Shown here in pieces: positions 33,525-48,723 of a stretch of 64,000 nucleotides of DNA. Under the pieces are notes generated by a model, which saw only the letters and a program-made list of their open reading frames with translations, was not told the DNA's origin and did not search any database. The position numbers and the translations under genes were made by a program. Origin of the DNA: a virus; IMG/VR virus record IMGVR_UViG_3300023179_000042, positions 1-64,000 of that record. One strand, given 5' to 3'. The first letter of the stretch is position 1. Every line of letters starts with the position of its first letter.

Positions 33525-34214
33525 TTAAGTATTAGCCAAGGTAACAACAGTACCGGTAGCCGATGCTAAAGTCCAGCCTGTTTGTACGCCATCGCTAACT
33601 AAGTAAGCAGTAGACATTGAACGTCGTTTAACTCTTACTTTATGAGCTGTTAGTTTAGTCACCCAGTATGTGCTTCCGTTATAATCCGTAGCAATGATAT
33701 TCATTGTTCCAGGAATCAATGTATTGGTAGCAGTTAATTTACACTGGCCAGTTCCGTCGGCATTCTGAACTAGGTATCGACGACTTGATTCTTGTTTAAT
33801 AATATCGCCACCAGTGCGACTTTGAGAAGCACTTGGTAGATATGAACTCAACGACAATGCATTTTGTCTATTAGACGTTAAAGTGATTGTAAATGTAGCA
33901 GTTGTACCTGTTGTGCCACCTGTAACTGTTGCGGTAGGTGCTGATGTGTAACCAGATCCAGCTGTTAACAAAGTAACAGTTGCTACCTGACCAAATGCGT
34001 TGGTTGTTACTCGACCAGTAGGGGCAGCTCCACCAGTAATATTAGGTGCTGTAAAAGTTAGACCAATAGTTGTAGAAGTAGTATATAAAGTACCGGTGTT
34101 ATTTTTAGCAATTGTGGCTACACCTTCGCCGCCAACACCGCTACCTTGACTTACACTACCGTAGTCAGGTAAATTTAAGTTACCAAAAAATTTCTTTTTA
34201 ATCGGACGTCCCAT
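33525..34214 (-). CDS. Conserved structural protein downstream of the major capsid gene (possible head decoration or appendage protein, 229 aa)
   Basis: MGRPIKKKFFG start with a strong SD (aaggag). Contains the GSGYTSAPTATVTGG repeat motif and IIKQESSRRYLV. It has its own late promoter and terminator. Confidence 0.7.
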   Translation of the reverse strand: MGRPIKKKFFGNLNLPDYGSVSQGSGVGGEGVATIAKNNTGTLYTTSTTIGLTFTAPNITGGAAPTGRVTTNAFGQVATVTLLTAGSGYTSAPTATVTGGTTGTTATFTITLTSNRQNALSLSSYLPSASQSRTGGDIIKQESSRRYLVQNADGTGQCKLTATNTLIPGTMNIIATDYNGSTYWVTKLTAHKVRVKRRSMSTAYLVSDGVQTGWTLASATGTVVTLANT

Positions 34215-34292
34215 TTTGTTTCTCCTTTAAAATAAACTAGCAGATTCTATCTGCTACGCGGCGGGGACCGCATAATATAAACATAGATACTT

Positions 34293-34300
34293 TATTTAAC
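34293..34300 (-). promoter_or_regulatory. T4-type late promoter variant (GTTAAATA)
   Basis: Immediately after the capsid-gene terminator and upstream of the 229-aa gene. Confidence 0.6.
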
Positions 34301-43972: not shown

Positions 43973-44713
43973 TTATCTAGAAATTAATTTGCTCAAATAG
44001 ACTACACGATCGTATTCTTCGTTGTAGCCTCGAACAAGGTTAGGATTATCATCTTCTGGCGGAGTCACTGCTGGAGCAGCAGGTTTAGCACTTGGTTTTT
44101 TGCTCTTTGTTGGCTTGACCGCACTTGCTGCATCTGCTGGAGGCACAGCCGGAGTTGTAGCTGTACTTGCGGCTGGAGCAGCGGTAGTTGCCGCCGGCTG
44201 TGCTGAAATAGCATCTAATTTATCTTTGGCATAGGCTACTACATTTTGTCGATCTCTACTTCTAACTTTTTGTACACTTGCCACAGCTTGATCAACTTCT
44301 TGTTTGGCCTGACCGGCAGCAACACGATTGCTAGCTGCTGTTACTCCGGTAGCAGCTGGCGCCGAAACTCCACTAGCGGAACCAGTTGGTGCTCCAGTAC
44401 CACTCAATGAACTTGCTGGCGCAGTACCACCAGCTGTAGCACCTGAAGCGGAACCAGTTGGTGCTCCAGTACCACTCAATGAACTTGCTGGCGCAGTACC
44501 ACCAGCTGTAGCACCTGAAGCGGAACCAGTTGACGCGGCAGGAGCTGTTTGGGCACTATCATCCCAACTACCCTTGGCATCTTGGTAACCTTTTTTAACA
44601 TCTCTTCCAAATGCTTTTAGGCCACCAACTACGTGTCCAGCTGTTTTGCCAATAACTGAACCTAGACCTTCGTCTATAGTTTCTTCAAGTACAATAATTT
44701 CATTGATTTTCAT
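43973..44713 (-). CDS. Low-complexity Ala/Thr/Pro-rich late protein, candidate internal head protein
   Basis: The likely start is MKINEII at 44713; the ORF track gives 44725. A perfect TATAAATA lies upstream and there is an internal 72-bp repeat. Confidence 0.7.
   Translation of the reverse strand: MKINEIIVLEETIDEGLGSVIGKTAGHVVGGLKAFGRDVKKGYQDAKGSWDDSAQTAPAASTGSASGATAGGTAPASSLSGTGAPTGSASGATAGGTAPASSLSGTGAPTGSASGVSAPAATGVTAASNRVAAGQAKQEVDQAVASVQKVRSRDRQNVVAYAKDKLDAISAQPAATTAAPAASTATTPAVPPADAASAVKPTKSKKPSAKPAAPAVTPPEDDNPNLVRGYNEEYDRVVYLSKLISR
44375..44532. repeat. 72-bp perfect tandem repeat (2.2 copies) encoding TGSASGATAGGTAPASSLSGTGAP
   Basis: The unit beginning agcggaaccagttggtgctccagtacc occurs at 44375 and 44447, with a partial copy at 44519. 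Confidence 0.95.
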
Positions 44714-44740
44714 AGTCTTATCCAAAAAAATGATTAAAGT

Positions 44741-44748
44741 TATTTATA
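44741..44748 (-). promoter_or_regulatory. T4 late promoter (TATAAATA)
   Basis: Perfect consensus between the ncRNA 3' hairpin and the MKINEII gene. Confidence 0.7.
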
Positions 44749-44755
44749 AGGATTA

Positions 44756-45174
44756 AGGTGAACTTTGTTCACCTGCCCTTTCGCTTGTCGCTCATGGCAA
44801 ATTTACATCGAAGATGTTTAAGTATCATCTAGATTAAGTGGTCACACTTTGCCCGCACAGGGCAAAGATTTCTGGGCATCATCTGAGTTGCACAGTCACA
44901 TAGCGTTAGAGCATTACAGTGGCGGTTGACCGGTACCACGAGCTCAGTCTTTATTCAACGGCAGGAGCATACAAATACGCTATCATTCATATGTCCGTTA
45001 GGGAATTACCCTTCTTTTTGCCTATTCATTCCTCTTCAAACAACCAAATCGCAGGTCTTAGTTAGCGATCCTCATCCTTTCGGGTAGTGGTTGAGTACTC
45101 TTAGCGGCGAGAGATTTCCGTCCCTGCGACCCGAGGTCCAGGTTTAGAGCACACGAACTTGGCCTGTGCGAGCC
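44756..45174 (-). ncRNA. Candidate large structured non-coding RNA (about 420 nt), family unassigned
   Basis: ORF-free and visibly GC-richer. At least 10 stems, an 11-bp long-range helix (45163-45173 with 44851-44861), a 7-bp loop pseudoknot (44977-44983 with 44900-44906) and a GAAA tetraloop. Mismatches become G-U wobbles on the minus strand. Confidence 0.7.
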
Positions 45175-45609
45175 TTAACCGTTTAATTTGCCTTTGATGT
45201 GTGAGCCATGGACACGGCACTGGATATGGCCGTTGTAATATTCATCTGATTCTAAGACTTGGTGTCTAAATTGCTCTCTTGCCTCAATATAACTACATTC
45301 TGCTTTAGATTTACAGTAGTAGAGTATTTCTCGTTTAAAATTATCTTTGCCTAATTTATTAATATCTTCTGTTAGATTAGGACTGGACCCATAATATTCC
45401 TGCCAGTCACTGTCTATTTTGCTACGAATTTTTTTCTTTTTCTTGTTGCCGTTTTTTAACTTTACTGTTTTGTAGGTTGTTTTACTAAATTTTGCTAATT
45501 TTTTGCCTATGTATTTTTTATTATTTGAAATATTTGTTATGATGTAGACAAACCCTACACAATCTTCGGGTAGTGCCTCAACTAAAGAATTTTGATAAAA
45601 CCAAGACAT
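45175..45609 (-). CDS. GIY-YIG family endonuclease (Seg/EndoII-like), 144 aa
   Basis: GFVYIITN...KKYIGKK motif, SDWQEYYGSS, FKREIL, a conserved Glu in YIEAREQ, and YYNG. There is a lysine-rich segment after YIG. Confidence 0.85.
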   Translation of the reverse strand: MSWFYQNSLVEALPEDCVGFVYIITNISNNKKYIGKKLAKFSKTTYKTVKLKNGNKKKKKIRSKIDSDWQEYYGSSPNLTEDINKLGKDNFKREILYYCKSKAECSYIEAREQFRHQVLESDEYYNGHIQCRVHGSHIKGKLNG

Positions 45610-45929
45610 TATGGGTCAACATTTTCGTTCGCACCATTTTTCTTTTTAAATAACTGAGTTCGTTGTAACCGATGTTGTCTTTGTTCTCTTCTTAATCTTT
45701 TTAATTCTTTCTCACCGTGTAATTTTGTCAAATATGCTTCTCTAATACTAACCATCATTTCTTTTTCAAGCTCGCGCATTTCTTTTAGCATACGCCGACA
45801 ATCTGTACTAGATATTTCACTTACATTGGTTAAAAAAGTCGTGTGTCTGTTATAGTAGTTTACTATTAAAGAAACAAATTTGTGATATTGTTCCTTATAA
45901 TTTTCAAGATGTTGATTAGACATAGTCAA
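45609..45929 (-). CDS. Hypothetical basic helical protein (106 aa)
   Basis: Its ends overlap gp46 and the nuclease gene, suggesting translational coupling. The C-terminus is R/K-rich. Confidence 0.65.
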   Translation of the reverse strand: MTMSNQHLENYKEQYHKFVSLIVNYYNRHTTFLTNVSEISSTDCRRMLKEMRELEKEMMVSIREAYLTKLHGEKELKRLRREQRQHRLQRTQLFKKKNGANENVDP

Positions 45930-47694
45930 TATCGTTACTATAATTGGTAAAACCGTTTTCTTTTATAACTTTCAATACATTGTTAACACGGCCAACCAAT
46001 TCGTCCTTGTGCGATATTAAGTATATATTCTTATGTCGTTCTCTGGCCATTTTCTTTAGGACCGCAAGCCCTGCTTCGACACCAGCAGCATCCATTCCGG
46101 AGTCCATAAGCTCATCAACAAACAACAAATTAATACTTTGGTAAAGTCCTTCCCAAACATCTCTAAAGGCAAAACTTAGACTTAGTATTAATCTGTTTCT
46201 CTCACCTCTTGACAAATTGTCAAAATCTAAATCTTGTCCAAGTTGTGTGATTTCAACATTTAAGTCGTTTTGGAAAACAACTCTATGCGGTAGTCCGAGC
46301 TTGTCAATGTAGTATCCAAGTCGCTTGTTTAAATAGGTTAAATTTTGATCAATAATTTTCTTACGAATAAAGCTATCTTTATTGGTTAAAAGTTTGTGTA
46401 AAAATTCTTGATGATCTTTTAGTTTGGTAAGTTCGTTAACAGTATCCCAACTGATTTCTTGAATAGCTGTAGTCTTAAGTTCATCAATTTGTTCATTAAA
46501 GGGATTTTTTTCTTCTGCTTTAGATATTAGAGTTTTTTCCAAATTTTCTAAATTGTTCTTGTGCCCTAGTGCTTCGGCTTCTGTATCGTAGTAGGTGTTA
46601 GGACGAGCAGGCATATCACCACTACCGATTTCGTCAACAATCTTTTTAAGATCCGAGGTTACTTTATTGAAATATGTTTCAGCCTCGAGCAAGTTTTTAA
46701 CGGCCGTTCCTGACATTTCTTCGTGCTTATGATCGTGTAATGCTTGCTCGCAGGCAGGGCATGTTTTATTTTTTAATTGGTCAACTTCTCGCATGTACTT
46801 GTCGCGGGTTTTTTGAGCCTGCGTAGCTGCGCTTTCTAATGTAGCTTTTTGTTTGTTGAGGCTTCGGGTCTTGTTGTCGTATTCAAGCCAGGCTTTTAAA
46901 TCTAGATGTGCCTGGAGTTCTGCTTCTATATCAACATTTTCTAAATTAACAATAGCACGACCGAGATTTTCTAATTCTTGTTGATGTTTTTGATCCCAGG
47001 CATTACTTTTTAATTGAAGACTATCAATACTTCGTTGAATATTATCATTAGCAGTTTTAATACCTTGTATTTTGAAATCTTCTTGGCTAATAAGATCTTT
47101 AGTTTCTTTAATTAGAACCTTAAGGTTTTCTGCCTTTTCACTTAGTAAGGTAATACCAAGAAGCTGTTCAATGATTTCTCGCTGATCAGCAGCCCTCATT
47201 GACAAAAAAGGCTCAGTGTAAGTATTAAGGGCTACAAGGTGCTTGAACATAGTATGTGTCATTTCGAGCATTTGTTCAATACTTTTTTGTGTTTCTCGAC
47301 TGTCGCCCTGGCTATCATCCTCTTCTTTGCTATCTTTTAACTGCTGATTATTAACGAATAACTTAAGAATATTGGGTTTACGACCACGCTCAATACGATA
47401 GATATTATTATTTTTTTCAAACTCAACGGTGACTAACATGTGCTTCCCGTTAATCTTGTTGATAAGATTTTCTTTTTTAATATTGGTTAAGGCCTGCCCA
47501 TATAGGGCGTAGCTTAGTGCGTTGGCAATGGTAGTCTTACCGGTGCCGTTTCTGCTACCTGTATCGTCGCCACCGAGATCGAGGTTAGCACCAAGAACCA
47601 GCGTTAAATGTGAGCGGTCAAAATCTACAGCCTGAGTTTGGTTGCCTACGCTCAAAAAGTTTTTTACGGTTAATGTCTTTATTTTAAACATCAA
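45916..47694 (-). CDS. gp46: Recombination endonuclease ATPase subunit (gp46 / Rad50 / SbcC-like)
   Basis: Walker A NGTGKTT, zinc hook CPAC, ABC signature LSRGE, Walker B LLFVDE and the ISH switch. Confidence 0.95.
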   Translation of the reverse strand: MMFKIKTLTVKNFLSVGNQTQAVDFDRSHLTLVLGANLDLGGDDTGSRNGTGKTTIANALSYALYGQALTNIKKENLINKINGKHMLVTVEFEKNNNIYRIERGRKPNILKLFVNNQQLKDSKEEDDSQGDSRETQKSIEQMLEMTHTMFKHLVALNTYTEPFLSMRAADQREIIEQLLGITLLSEKAENLKVLIKETKDLISQEDFKIQGIKTANDNIQRSIDSLQLKSNAWDQKHQQELENLGRAIVNLENVDIEAELQAHLDLKAWLEYDNKTRSLNKQKATLESAATQAQKTRDKYMREVDQLKNKTCPACEQALHDHKHEEMSGTAVKNLLEAETYFNKVTSDLKKIVDEIGSGDMPARPNTYYDTEAEALGHKNNLENLEKTLISKAEEKNPFNEQIDELKTTAIQEISWDTVNELTKLKDHQEFLHKLLTNKDSFIRKKIIDQNLTYLNKRLGYYIDKLGLPHRVVFQNDLNVEITQLGQDLDFDNLSRGERNRLILSLSFAFRDVWEGLYQSINLLFVDELMDSGMDAAGVEAGLAVLKKMARERHKNIYLISHKDELVGRVNNVLKVIKENGFTNYSNDIDYV

Positions 47695-48704
47695 ATATTT
47701 CTATAAATGTCAAGAAGTATATTTTTTTCAAATTGTTCTGATTCAATGTTAACTAATTGTTCACTTACAATTTGATCTACACTTTCAAATTTTTGATCAG
47801 GATTGTCTTCAACAATTCCTTCGAGATTGATTTTATCTTGTATAAGACTAATTTCTCTGATGTCAAAGCGACCAGTGAAGTCTTCTTTGATAAAATTGGC
47901 TTCTTCGAAGCTAATATCAATATCGAGATTAACTTTTAAGTGCATTTTACTTTTCATTACTTCAGCTTCTCGATCGATTAAGTCGGAAAGTTTTATTGTT
48001 CTGTATTTTGGACAGTTATCCCAATCGATAAATCTTGGCTTTCCGCCCCATTCCATTACCATCATTCCGCGCTGATCGTCCCAGGTATCGGCAAAATTAT
48101 GCGGAAAGGCATTGCCGATGTACCAAACACGCCCTTTATTTTGGCGCTTGTGAAAATGCCCGCTAAAGATATATTCTTGATTGGTAAAGTGATCTGCTTG
48201 AAGCTCGCCGTGGTCGGGCATTTGTACCATAGCATTCATCATGAACTGTGGTAGTTCAAAATGTCCAAACATGTACTTACTGTTTATCTTGCCAATTTCT
48301 TTCCATTCGTCACCTACCAACCACGGTACTAAAGCCACATCGTCTATGACGGTAACATCTTCGACTACAGTGACGCCTGGGATATGCCTACCAAAAATAC
48401 TAGAATGGATATCGCGCTTGTCCTTAAAAAACAAATCGTGATTACCAGGAAACCAGAAAAACTGGTTAAATGCAGCTCCGAGCTTTTCAAGGCACCTAAT
48501 GCTTGAATCAAGAGTTACAAGATTTAGGCTATTGCGATTGTGGCTCCAATCGCCTAAAAATATGCCTGTGTCACAATTTTCTTTTTGTGCCTGCTCAATA
48601 AACCAATCTACAAACTCTTCGCAGTCTTTCAAGTGTGTAGCTGAGTTTCCTTTGAGTCCAAAATGTATGTCAGTAAAACAAGCAACCTTTTTAAACAAGG
48701 CCAT
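47691..48704 (-). CDS. gp47: Recombination endonuclease nuclease subunit (gp47 / Mre11 / SbcD-like)
   Basis: Metallophosphoesterase motifs DIHFG, FLGD, GNHD, GHFE and SGHFH. The likely start is MALFKK at 48704, with SD aggag. Confidence 0.95.
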   Translation of the reverse strand: MALFKKVACFTDIHFGLKGNSATHLKDCEEFVDWFIEQAQKENCDTGIFLGDWSHNRNSLNLVTLDSSIRCLEKLGAAFNQFFWFPGNHDLFFKDKRDIHSSIFGRHIPGVTVVEDVTVIDDVALVPWLVGDEWKEIGKINSKYMFGHFELPQFMMNAMVQMPDHGELQADHFTNQEYIFSGHFHKRQNKGRVWYIGNAFPHNFADTWDDQRGMMVMEWGGKPRFIDWDNCPKYRTIKLSDLIDREAEVMKSKMHLKVNLDIDISFEEANFIKEDFTGRFDIREISLIQDKINLEGIVEDNPDQKFESVDQIVSEQLVNIESEQFEKNILLDIYRNI

Positions 48705-48723
48705 ATAATATTCTCCTGTCAAG

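What the first reader, a model, noticed from the sequence alone, without database searches (positions are those of the whole stretch)
44756..45174. Ornate structured RNA of about 420 nt starting at the stop codon of a GIY-YIG nuclease: candidate nuclease-ncRNA system
Seen: this is by far the longest non-coding gap in the window and is GC-richer than its flanks. Stems in plus coordinates: cctg.gacc/ggtc.cagg (45123-45142); ctct/agag (45098-45113); caacca/tggttg (45041-45093) enclosing a ccGAAAgg tetraloop and atcgc/gcgat; a 12-bp hairpin (44964-44996) whose loop (minus GATAGCGT) is complementary to ACGCTAT at 44900-44906, forming a pseudoknot; gtgg.cgg/ccg.ccac (44919-44939); ctttgccc/gggcaaag (44847-44867); acatc/gatgt (44805-44817); aggtgaac/gttcacct (44756-44774). 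The extreme 5' end (GCTCGCACAGG, 45173-45163) can pair over 11 bp with the 44861-44851 hairpin about 310 nt away, as a closing helix or conformational switch. Mismatches are G-U on the minus strand and A-C on the plus strand, which argues for selection on a minus-strand RNA co-transcribed with the nuclease. Established: nuclease-plus-adjacent-RNA architectures exist (TnpB/IscB omega RNA, HEARO), as do large phage RNAs (GOLLD, ROOL). Inference: this may be an undescribed RNP or RNA-guided GIY-YIG system, or a new large phage RNA or ribozyme.
Basis: partly seen in the sequence, partly recalled or inferred. Interest (0 to 1): 0.88.

Follow-up and report, generated by a model that had tools for sequence, protein, structure and literature searches.

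The report
Twin-box phage RNA, extended Polynucleobacter-1
The gene-free gap behind a small nuclease gene of this uncultured giant freshwater T4-like phage encodes a real, doubly knotted non-coding RNA of about 420 bases; its first third is an orphan motif catalogued in 2010, its uncatalogued rest carries the same short word twice, and nothing tested here shows that it guides the nuclease.

Summary
Window 45174-44756 (minus strand) is a conserved structured RNA. Its 5' 137 nt match Rfam Polynucleobacter-1 (RF01718) over the full model at 120.8 bits. The remaining ~280 nt are in no Rfam family.

On 50 relatives, 81 proposed pairs are 87.5% paired, against 37-44% when slid, and 56 show compensatory changes. 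Both pseudoknots are about 96% paired. The proposed 11-bp closing helix is not supported.

The 3' domain carries one 7-nt word twice (AGAUGAU here). Positions 2-7 are identical in 190 of 190 distinct RNAs, through at least 31 word changes. I found no reader for it.

The RNA-guided nuclease idea is weakened:
- The RNA occurs without any nuclease in Burkholderiales islands.
- Nuclease homologues occur without the RNA in two cultured phages checked.
- No guide-like segment exists.
- No nuclease residue tracks the word.

One link remains. A small nuclease gene abuts the RNA in 65 of 70 phage loci, and an unrelated PD-(D/E)XK nuclease takes the same slot in others.

Most likely this is an autonomous trans-acting RNA whose twin words are base-pairing sites. 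The function is unproven. This scan had already found the same RNA on other DNA in more than 200 genomes.

The parts
45175..45609 (-). 144-aa stand-alone GIY-YIG nuclease gene (SegE-type catalytic domain only). Its stop codon abuts the RNA 5' end.
   Evidence: Pfam PF19835 E=3.5e-33 over 123 of 123 profile positions. PHROG and PADLOC label it a homing endonuclease. 72-90% aa identity in 80 relatives.
45038..45174 (-). 5' domain, identical to Rfam Polynucleobacter-1 RNA. Helices: H1 45149-45169, H2 45124-45141, H3 45098-45113, H4 45041-45093 enclosing CC-GAAA-GG and GAUCGC/GCGAUU.
   Evidence: cmscan 120.8 bits, model positions 1-141 of 141. H1, H4 and H4b are 98-99.6% paired with compensatory changes.
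44964..45012 (-). Central domain, first part: short variable hairpin H5 (45000-45012) and the 12-bp hairpin H6 (44964-44996), whose loop forms pseudoknot 1.
   Evidence: H6: 9 of 9 tested pairs show compensatory changes. H5 varies in length and aligns poorly (55% paired).
44900..44983 (-). Pseudoknot 1: loop AUAGCGU (44977-44983) pairs with ACGCUAU (44900-44906).
   Evidence: 96.2% paired, 7 of 7 pairs with changes on both sides. RNAalifold also picks it.
44909..44959 (-). Pseudoknot 2 and helix H8: GUUGA (44955-44959) pairs with UCAAC (44925-44929) in the loop of H8 (GAGC..GUGG / CCAC..GCUC, 44909-44945). Holds the invariant GGUA..ACCGCC core.
   Evidence: PK2 is 96.8% paired with 3 compensatory pairs. 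H8a is 98% and H8b 96% paired. Invariant columns are listed.
44878..44884 (-). Twin word, copy 1 (AGAUGAU, preceded by GUGAC-N-AACUC).
   Evidence: Identical to copy 2 in 50 of 50, 94 of 94 and 187 of 190 RNAs. The 3 exceptions differ only at position 1.
44847..44867 (-). Strong hairpin H10 (CUUUGCCC-UGUGC-GGGCAAAG) between the two words.
   Evidence: 89% paired, compensatory changes at 2 pairs. A homologous hairpin sits between the words in bacterial copies.
44824..44830 (-). Twin word, copy 2 (AGAUGAU, preceded by GUGAC-N-AAUCU).
   Evidence: As for copy 1. The start-to-start spacing of the two words is 47-61 nt with no multiple-of-3 rule.
44756..44817 (-). 3' tail. Contains a mini-hairpin with a C-UUC-G apex (44805-44817), a hairpin with the conserved loop UGAGCG-ACA-AGCGAAA (44773-44801), and a terminal hairpin AGGUGAAC/GUUCACCU (44756-44774). 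The terminal hairpin is the likely 3' end, but it has no U-tract.
   Evidence: A motif matching GAGY-N3-5-RSYGMW occurs after word 2 in 75 of 104 loci. The hairpins are visible in the alignment. No canonical intrinsic terminator was found.
44741..44748 (-). TATAAATA, the T4 late-promoter consensus, just after the RNA and before the next gene (ORF 43973-44725; ATG at 44714). It marks the end of the RNA transcription unit.
   Evidence: Read directly from the sequence. The same octamer lies 72-113 nt after word 2 in 25 of 104 loci. That TATAAATA is the T4 late-promoter consensus is established knowledge.

Best explanation
Window 45174-44756 (minus strand) is the gene of a full-length 'twin-box' RNA. 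This is a structured non-coding RNA of about 420 nt, and the catalogued Polynucleobacter-1 motif is only its 5' third.

Shown:
- It has at least ten covariation-supported helices and two pseudoknots.
- It occurs once per genome in roughly 350-kb freshwater T4-like phages, always in the slot gp47-gp46-(small ORFs)-small nuclease-RNA.
- Full-length homologues sit in small mobile islands of Burkholderiales that have no nuclease.

Inferred: it is transcribed as the last unit of the gp47/gp46/nuclease operon, because the nuclease stop codon touches the RNA 5' end. It probably ends at the terminal hairpin, ahead of a late promoter.

Inferred mechanism, which I commit to at about one chance in three: the folded body is a scaffold that displays two copies of one 6-7-nt word. 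Each copy base-pairs with the same complementary sequence on a partner nucleic acid encoded elsewhere, in the host or in an unsampled part of the phage genome. The word would then act as a specificity determinant that must stay matched in both copies.

The adjacent nuclease is not guided by the RNA. Most likely it is a resident small endonuclease gene that shares the transcription unit or uses the conserved RNA gene as its landing site, much as segB sits in the T4 tRNA cluster. This would explain why an unrelated PD-(D/E)XK nuclease can occupy the same slot.
For: RNA and structure: Rfam gives 120.8 bits. Of 81 pairs, 87.5% are paired against 37-44% when slid, 56 are compensatory, and 0 of 500 shuffles reach the observed values.

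Family and context:
- 65 of 70 RNA-first phage loci have the GIY-YIG gene ending at most 113 nt before the RNA.
- Synteny is conserved in 80 loci.
- There is one copy in each of the complete genomes G006 and G007.

Autonomy:
- Bacterial copies are full length, keep their own twin words, and have DUF6641 (plus a mini recombinase in three annotated loci) instead of a nuclease.
- The complete phage genomes lack DUF6641 and tyrosine recombinases.
- The two cultured phages examined have the nuclease but not the RNA.
- No nuclease residue tracks the word.

Twin words:
- 187 of 190 distinct RNAs carry identical copies, and the 3 exceptions differ only at position 1.
- The word changed at least 31 times on a tree built with the words masked.
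- The flanks next to the words differ consistently (ACUC..G against AUCU..A). This argues for selection rather than gene conversion.

Slot: PF24608 nucleases abut the RNA in 15 of 28 loci.
Against: - No partner was found. There is no complementary or third copy that tracks the word in the RNA, in the nuclease ORF, in 3-kb flanks, or in alignable parts of eight phage genomes, two of them complete.
- Thermodynamic folding does not predict the words to be especially unpaired (0.43 and 0.51, against 0.45 for the whole domain).
- The stem that would place word 1 in a loop is weakly supported (46-60% paired).
- No expression data could be obtained.
- The nuclease is more conserved than a typical selfish homing gene. 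Its aa identity plateaus at 0.72 where gp46 falls to 0.45, and it is present in 93% of loci. This fits a landing-site model poorly.
Confidence: 0.5

Rival explanations
1. Nuclease-RNA ribonucleoprotein. The RNA binds the small nuclease, which has no DNA-binding domain, and targets or regulates it. The twin words would be the recognition element, and the nuclease module would be exchangeable.
For: - The nuclease stop abuts the RNA in 65 of 70 loci.
- The protein is only the 123-residue catalytic domain plus about 20 residues.
- An unrelated PD-(D/E)XK nuclease sits in exactly the same position, 8-26 nt before the RNA, in at least 15 loci.
- The nuclease is under purifying selection.
Against: - The RNA occurs without a nuclease in about 18 bacterial loci and, as a divergent copy, in L242.
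- Homologous nucleases lack the RNA in the two cultured phages examined.
- A 7-nt word gives no useful targeting specificity in a 350-kb phage or a megabase-sized host genome. The phage's own word and its complement are not depleted or enriched.
- No nuclease column tracks the word (best MI/H 0.16-0.51, against a background of up to 0.51).
- Extra genes are inserted between nuclease and RNA in L030, L053 and L205.
Confidence: 0.12
2. The RNA is an independent phage gene, and the neighbouring nuclease is a free-standing homing endonuclease that cuts nuclease-free or foreign alleles of the RNA gene. The cassette spreads by co-conversion, and word variation gives cleavage resistance.
For: - The GIY-YIG fold is of the Seg type.
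- Two unrelated nuclease families occupy one slot.
- The nuclease and RNA are conserved as a block with sharp ends.
- L055 against L045 and L067 shows that the RNA allele was exchanged between close relatives.
Against: - No pair has near-identical cassettes in distant backbones, so there is no sign of recent horizontal spread.
- The gene is nearly universal and intact rather than patchy.
- There is no C-terminal DNA-binding domain.
- Resistance would not require the two words to be identical to each other.
Confidence: 0.2
3. DNA-level or primer element. The region acts as a replication origin or pre-primer RNA of the ColE1 RNA II or T4 oriE type. The two identical direct repeats would be iteron-like sites, or sites for re-annealing of a nascent strand.
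For: - Words that are identical within an element and differ between elements is the iteron pattern.
- There is a single copy per genome.
- The element is carried by small mobile islands.
- L455-type phages have an RNase H gene in the slot.
- L230 has tandem repeats next to the RNA.
Against: - Two pseudoknots and strand-specific G-U intermediates show selection on a folded single strand.
- Cumulative GC skew is monotonic through the locus in two complete genomes.
- No initiator gene travels with it.
- There are only two repeats.
- The unit between the words has no coding or length rule.
Confidence: 0.1
4. Self-processing RNA or ribozyme. The two identical words are cleavage or ligation sites, so that a segment of about 55 nt containing the hairpin is excised or circularised and one word remains.
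For: - Many invariant unpaired nucleotides cluster around the pseudoknots.
- Identical short repeats flanking a removable segment is the pattern seen at template-switch or excision junctions. This is a comparison from general knowledge.
Against: - No internal guide complementary to the word was found.
- There is no match to any ribozyme family in Rfam.
- No natural variant lacks the segment.
Confidence: 0.08

Closest known systems
Polynucleobacter-1 RNA motif (Rfam RF01718; Weinberg et al. 2010, Genome Biol 11:R31, PMC2864571)
   Same: The first 137 nt match the whole model at 120.8 bits. The 2010 supplement already noted that most examples lie downstream of one gene family with a cyanophage homologue, and that one example is in Polynucleobacter.
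   Different: - The Rfam model is 141 positions, whereas the RNA here is about 420 nt.
- The two pseudoknots, the invariant core and the twin words are not in Rfam or in any paper I could find.
- The 2010 authors found none in purified phages. Here it is a single-copy gene of ~350-kb T4-like phages.
- Some variants keep the 3' domain but have another 5' domain that Rfam misses.
OMEGA guide RNAs (TnpB/IscB omega RNA; HEARO RNA)
   Same: A structured RNA directly adjacent to and co-oriented with a small nuclease gene.
   Different: - The nuclease folds differ (GIY-YIG or PD-(D/E)XK).
- There is no guide segment of 15 nt or more.
- There are no transposon ends.
- RNA and nuclease each occur without the other.
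Free-standing Seg-type GIY-YIG endonuclease genes of T4 (for example segB in the tRNA gene cluster; named from general knowledge)
   Same: A GIY-YIG gene inserted beside a conserved RNA gene in a T4-like genome, in a slot that can hold a different nuclease family.
   Different: - There is no DNA-binding domain.
- The gene is near-universal and strongly conserved rather than patchy.
- Homing was not shown.
Large ornate phage RNAs (GOLLD, ROOL)
   Same: A large, pseudoknotted, phage-borne RNA of unknown function with strong covariation.
   Different: - There is no sequence or structure match.
- It is smaller.
- The twin-word feature has no counterpart known to me.
Antisense-RNA specificity loops (ColE1 RNA I/RNA II; P1/P7 c4 RNA; P4 CI RNA with seqA/seqC; named from general knowledge)
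   Same: Short (about 7-nt) sequences that differ between close relatives and set specificity by base pairing. P4 has two similar target copies.
   Different: No complementary partner sequence was found here, in cis or in trans.

Membership tests
Polynucleobacter-1 RNA (RF01718) | Covariance-model score at or above the curated gathering score (37 bits) over the whole model | tested here: met
   120.8 bits, model positions 1-141 of 141, E=1e-25.
Polynucleobacter-1 RNA (RF01718) | Consensus helices kept by compensatory changes | tested here: met
   H1, H2, H4 and H4b are 92-99.6% paired with double changes. H2's inner stem and H3 are weaker in my alignment (79% and 68%).
Polynucleobacter-1 RNA (RF01718) | Lies downstream of the GOS11034 / P-SSM2 locus 218-like gene, as in the 2010 description | tested here: inconclusive
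   It lies downstream of a GIY-YIG gene whose homologues are common in cyanophages. I could not map that gene to GOS11034 or PSSM2_218.
RNA-guided nuclease systems (OMEGA / CRISPR-like) | A variable guide segment long enough to specify a target (15 nt or more) next to a conserved scaffold | tested here: not met
   The only lineage-variable, unpaired element under constraint is a 7-nt word. The other variable stretches are covarying stems or the structured tail.
RNA-guided nuclease systems (OMEGA / CRISPR-like) | Obligate co-occurrence of the RNA and its nuclease | tested here: not met
   The RNA occurs without a nuclease in bacterial islands and in L242. The nuclease occurs without the RNA in Melnitz and S-SRM01.
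RNA-guided nuclease systems (OMEGA / CRISPR-like) | Physical binding of RNA and nuclease, with RNA-dependent cleavage | not testable with these tools
   This needs biochemistry. No nuclease residue co-varies with the word.
Free-standing homing endonuclease cassette (Seg-like) | GIY-YIG catalytic domain | tested here: met
   PF19835, E=3.5e-33.
Free-standing homing endonuclease cassette (Seg-like) | Patchy distribution and signs of recent horizontal spread | tested here: not met
   It is present in 65 of 70 loci. No cassette pair exceeds 90% identity in backbones with gp46 below 70%.
Free-standing homing endonuclease cassette (Seg-like) | The same intergenic slot is used by unrelated endonuclease families | tested here: met
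   PF24608 PD-(D/E)XK genes occupy the slot in L216, L230 and 15 of 28 relatives.
GOLLD / ROOL and other Rfam large RNAs, ribozymes, tmRNA, RNase P | Match to the family covariance model | tested here: not met
   cmscan at E up to 10 on 44600-45700 gives only RF01718 plus two chance-level rows. ARAGORN finds no tRNA or tmRNA.
Iteron-type origin / tyrosine-recombinase site pair | A cognate initiator or recombinase gene present with the repeats | tested here: not met
   There is no PF00589 and no DUF6641 in the complete phage genomes. GC skew shows no inflection.

The most novel reading that the evidence does not exclude
The twin words are matched base-pairing sites of a new kind of trans-acting phage RNA. 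It would recognise two copies of a short complementary sequence, for example to tell self from non-self among co-infecting relatives or host islands. It would work with whichever small nuclease (GIY-YIG or PD-(D/E)XK) is encoded immediately upstream. That would make it an RNA-specified nuclease system with exchangeable effector folds.
Probability: 0.08. Interest if true: 0.9.

Novelty: new variant of a known kind. Interest (0 to 1): 0.6.

Why it matters
- An orphan Rfam motif from 2010 turns out to be only the first third of a much larger RNA with two pseudoknots. This RNA is a near-universal single-copy gene of a large group of giant freshwater T4-like phages. It is shared with small mobile islands of bacteria that are plausibly their hosts.
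- The two words stay identical through dozens of changes. That is an unusually clean evolutionary signal of a sequence-specific reader that nobody has identified, and it gives a direct experimental handle: mutate one word, both words, or swap words.
- If the link with the upstream nucleases is functional, it would extend RNA-associated nucleases to two more folds.

Tried and rejected
- Cultured relatives by DNA: blastn of the locus against 50,697 phage records found nothing.
- Cis partner of the word: a mutual-information scan and a pairing scan of the RNA and the nuclease ORF found only a wobble-only match to the conserved GUUGUUU at 45038-45044.
- Trans partner of the word:
  - The 7-mer and its complement are not enriched in six genomes.
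  - No homologous site tracks the word in eight genomes.
  - The one candidate failed in a third genome.
- Nuclease as reader: no co-varying residue.
- DUF6641 as a hidden GIY-YIG: hhalign probability 0.2%.
- DUF6641 function: nothing in PADLOC, no paper, and an AF2 model (pLDDT 84) without a significant PDB fold match.
- Tyrosine-recombinase crossover sites: rejected for phages, because no recombinase is present in the complete genomes.
- Rolling-circle template encoding an endless ORF (DRT2-like): unit length is 47-61 nt with no multiple-of-3 rule, and only 30 of 94 have a stop-free concatemer frame.
- Origin of replication: GC skew is flat through the locus.
- Sigma-70 promoters and intrinsic terminators: at chance level or absent.
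- Words exposed in loops: not supported by thermodynamic folding.

Full report
**1. What is at the coordinates**

The window comes from a 105.7-kb IMG/VR viral contig, estimated about 30% complete. Genes for gp47-like (Metallophos) and gp46-like (SMC_N/AAA_23) recombination nucleases and a T4 baseplate protein mark it as a T4-like phage.

On the minus strand the order is:
- gp47-like (47691-48722)
- gp46-like (45916-47694)
- a 106-aa ORF
- a 144-aa GIY-YIG gene (45175-45609; PF19835, E=3.5e-33)
- the ORF-free stretch 45174-44726
- a 250-aa ORF

cmscan places a full-length Polynucleobacter-1 RNA (RF01718) at 45174-45038 on the minus strand: 120.8 bits against a gathering score of 37. Nothing else credible appears in the gap, even at E up to 10. 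The only paper found that mentions this family is Weinberg et al. 2010 (PMC2864571). Its supplement says the motif lies mostly downstream of one gene family with a cyanophage homologue, and that none was found in purified phages.

**2. The RNA is about three times longer than the Rfam motif**

A protein-based scan of IMG/VR with the nuclease found more than 548 relatives. In most of the 80 fetched loci, DNA similarity runs without a break from the nuclease start codon to about window 44815. That is roughly 360 nt past the stop codon.

In an alignment of 50 distinct copies (A1) I wrote down 81 base pairs in 17 helices and counted them:
- 87.5% of cells are paired, against 37-44% when the partners are slid.
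- 56 pairs show changes on both sides.
- The covariation score is 0.329 against about 0.07.
- No shuffle out of 500 reaches any observed measure.

A second pseudoknot (44955-44959 with 44925-44929) is 96.8% paired. One-sided changes are largely G-U on the minus strand, so the fold is selected on the transcribed sense.

The proposed 11-bp helix between the extreme 5' end and the 44851-44861 hairpin does no better than shuffled columns.

The last ~60 nt (44817-44756) hold three small hairpins. One has the conserved loop UGAGCG..AGCGAAA, and a matching motif follows the second word in 75 of 104 loci. A T4 late-promoter octamer, TATAAATA (44741-44748), follows the tail and precedes the next gene.

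**3. The twin words**

The 3' domain has two similar units, GUGAC-N-A(A/C)UC(U/C)-word. They flank a strong hairpin (44847-44867). The 7-nt word is AGAUGAU in this window, at 44878-44884 and 44824-44830.

Evidence that the two copies are held identical:
- They are identical in 50 of 50 and 94 of 94 loci.
- On a tree built with the words masked, the word changed at least 31 times, and position 1 alone at least 18 times.
- The window and its closest relative, L002, are 90% identical in the RNA. Even so, their words differ at two positions, in both copies.
- Among 190 distinct RNAs, 187 have identical copies. The other three differ only at position 1, and each has G in copy 1 and A in copy 2.
- Directed scans of IMG/VR for copies discordant at position 5 found no true RNA in either direction.
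- The nucleotides touching the words differ consistently between the units (ACUC..G against AUCU..A). Gene conversion confined to exactly seven letters is therefore implausible, and selection for identity is the better reading (inference).

**4.

I found none.
- No column in the RNA or in the nuclease ORF is complementary to the word in a way that tracks it. The one hit is the conserved GUUGUUU at 45038-45044, which pairs only through wobble and is absent from bacterial copies as far as I could see.
- I fetched seven further phage contigs, two of them complete (354,680 and 345,154 bases). The genome's own word and its complement are not enriched in the six genomes counted. The only homologous sites whose 7-mer changes with the word are the twin words themselves.
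- No nuclease residue carries information about the word above the background seen for ordinary RNA columns.
- The unit between the words is 47-61 nt, has no multiple-of-3 rule and has no stop-free concatemer frame in most copies. A DRT2-like template therefore does not fit.

**5. Relation to the nuclease**

*For a link:*
- I ran an RNA-first scan, in which loci were found by an RNA motif only. In it, 65 of 70 RNA-positive loci with room upstream have the GIY-YIG gene ending at most 113 nt before the RNA.
- In L216 and L230 the gene in that position is instead a PF24608 PD-(D/E)XK nuclease.
- In 11 of 28 relatives of that nuclease the full-length RNA starts 11-26 nt after its stop, in the same gp46 slot. 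In 4 more, only the RNA's 3' domain is detected, about 215 nt after the stop.

*Against a partnership:*
- A pattern scan of prokaryotic genomes plus nhmmer found about 18 Burkholderiales loci, from Polynucleobacter, Limnohabitans and Comamonadaceae.
- Their alignment shows the whole architecture, including a central hairpin flanked by twin words of another family (AGCGAAA, AUCGAAA, AUCAAAA).
- Their neighbours are a divergent DUF6641 gene (phrog_31551, unknown function). In the three loci I annotated, a tyrosine recombinase of about 190 aa follows. There is no nuclease.
- The shared block between Limnohabitans-type copies is about 2.1 kb (RNA, DUF6641, one more ORF) and sits in different host contexts.
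- The complete phage genomes have neither DUF6641 nor a tyrosine recombinase. No protein neighbour is therefore universal.
- Conversely, homologues of the nuclease (36-51% identity) occur in 494 cultured T4-like phage records. In Melnitz and S-SRM01 there is no gap behind the gene, and the Rfam model finds nothing in either genome.

*Inheritance:*
- Nuclease and RNA identities fall together with gp46 identity, and no near-identical cassette sits in a distant backbone. Inheritance therefore looks mainly vertical.
- The nuclease is under purifying selection: aa identity 0.73 at nt identity 0.67, where gp46 is 0.40-0.55.
- One case shows the RNA allele swapped between close relatives (L055 against L045 and L067).

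**6. Reading**

Shown:
- A real, highly structured RNA gene.
- Membership of its 5' domain in RF01718.
- An uncatalogued 3' two-thirds with two pseudoknots.
- A pair of matched words.

Inferred:
- The RNA is co-transcribed with the nuclease operon.
- It acts in trans.
- The words are base-pairing sites for a partner encoded elsewhere.

The RNA-guided nuclease idea is not excluded, but it fails the tests available here. The recurrent abutting nuclease, in two unrelated folds, is the one observation that keeps it alive. It can also be explained by endonuclease genes settling next to a conserved gene, or by plain operon structure.

Origin, recombination-site and ribozyme readings each lack their expected companion: skew inflection and initiator, recombinase, and internal guide respectively.

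**7. Novelty and earlier notes**

The family name is known, but the full-length architecture and the twin words are in no paper or Rfam entry that I could find.

Earlier notes of this scan describe the same RNA on other DNA in more than 200 genomes. My tests were made independently on this window, and they agree with those notes on structure, twin words and nuclease-free islands.

My additions, judging only from the short summaries of those notes:
- the PD-(D/E)XK replacement in the same slot
- the count of at least 31 word changes
- the position-1-only, one-polarity mismatches
- the negative whole-genome partner search
- the absence of nuclease-word co-variation

Noticed in passing
window 34212-34295 (-): A second catalogued orphan RNA, freshwater-2 (RF02980), matches at 61.8 bits against a gathering score of 49.9.
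   Followed up: no
window 43973-44725 (-): The 250-aa ORF after the RNA has no Pfam or PHROG family. It contains a near-perfect tandem repeat of about 57 nt, visible at 44366-44535, in a region with GC about 0.50. It is preceded by a T4 late-promoter octamer.
   Followed up: partly
L230:9850-10010: In a 302-kb phage contig, three tandem copies of a unit of about 40 nt (…TTGTTCGCATTAGGCGATCTAGGCACA…) lie between the PD-(D/E)XK gene and a divergent twin-box RNA.
   Followed up: no
L477:3067-3574: In the same gp46 slot, behind a PD-(D/E)XK gene, lies a different GC-rich ORF-free element of about 500 nt. My search found no twin words in it, but its 3' tail is similar (GAACGAAGTGA; ATGAGCG-TTAG-CTCAT). 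It may be a further RNA class or an extreme variant.
   Followed up: partly
L455:3136-3555: L455 carries an RNase H gene (PF00075, E=2e-44) directly after the PD-(D/E)XK gene, followed by a gap of about 675 nt with no long ORF and no Rfam hit. nhmmer found no RNA in the related loci L456-L465 either, but I did not check those for RNase H.
   Followed up: partly
L089 and L120 (Limnohabitans sp. Bal53), L144: The bacterial element (RNA, DUF6641 and a 137-aa ORF, about 2.1 kb) occurs twice in one genome, and one copy (L089) is truncated inside the RNA. In L144 it sits next to LysR and aconitase genes, so it is a small mobile island.
   Followed up: partly
L030:3429-4253, L053:2536-3540, L205:7888-8814: The junction between nuclease and RNA is an insertion point. 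Extra ORFs of 274, 334 and 308 aa are wedged in; the 308-aa ORF is methyltransferase-like.
   Followed up: partly
L346:4106-4167, L347:946-1011, L416: These are the only twin-word mismatches found. All three have G in copy 1 and A in copy 2 at word position 1. The opposite polarity was not found in IMG/VR.
   Followed up: yes
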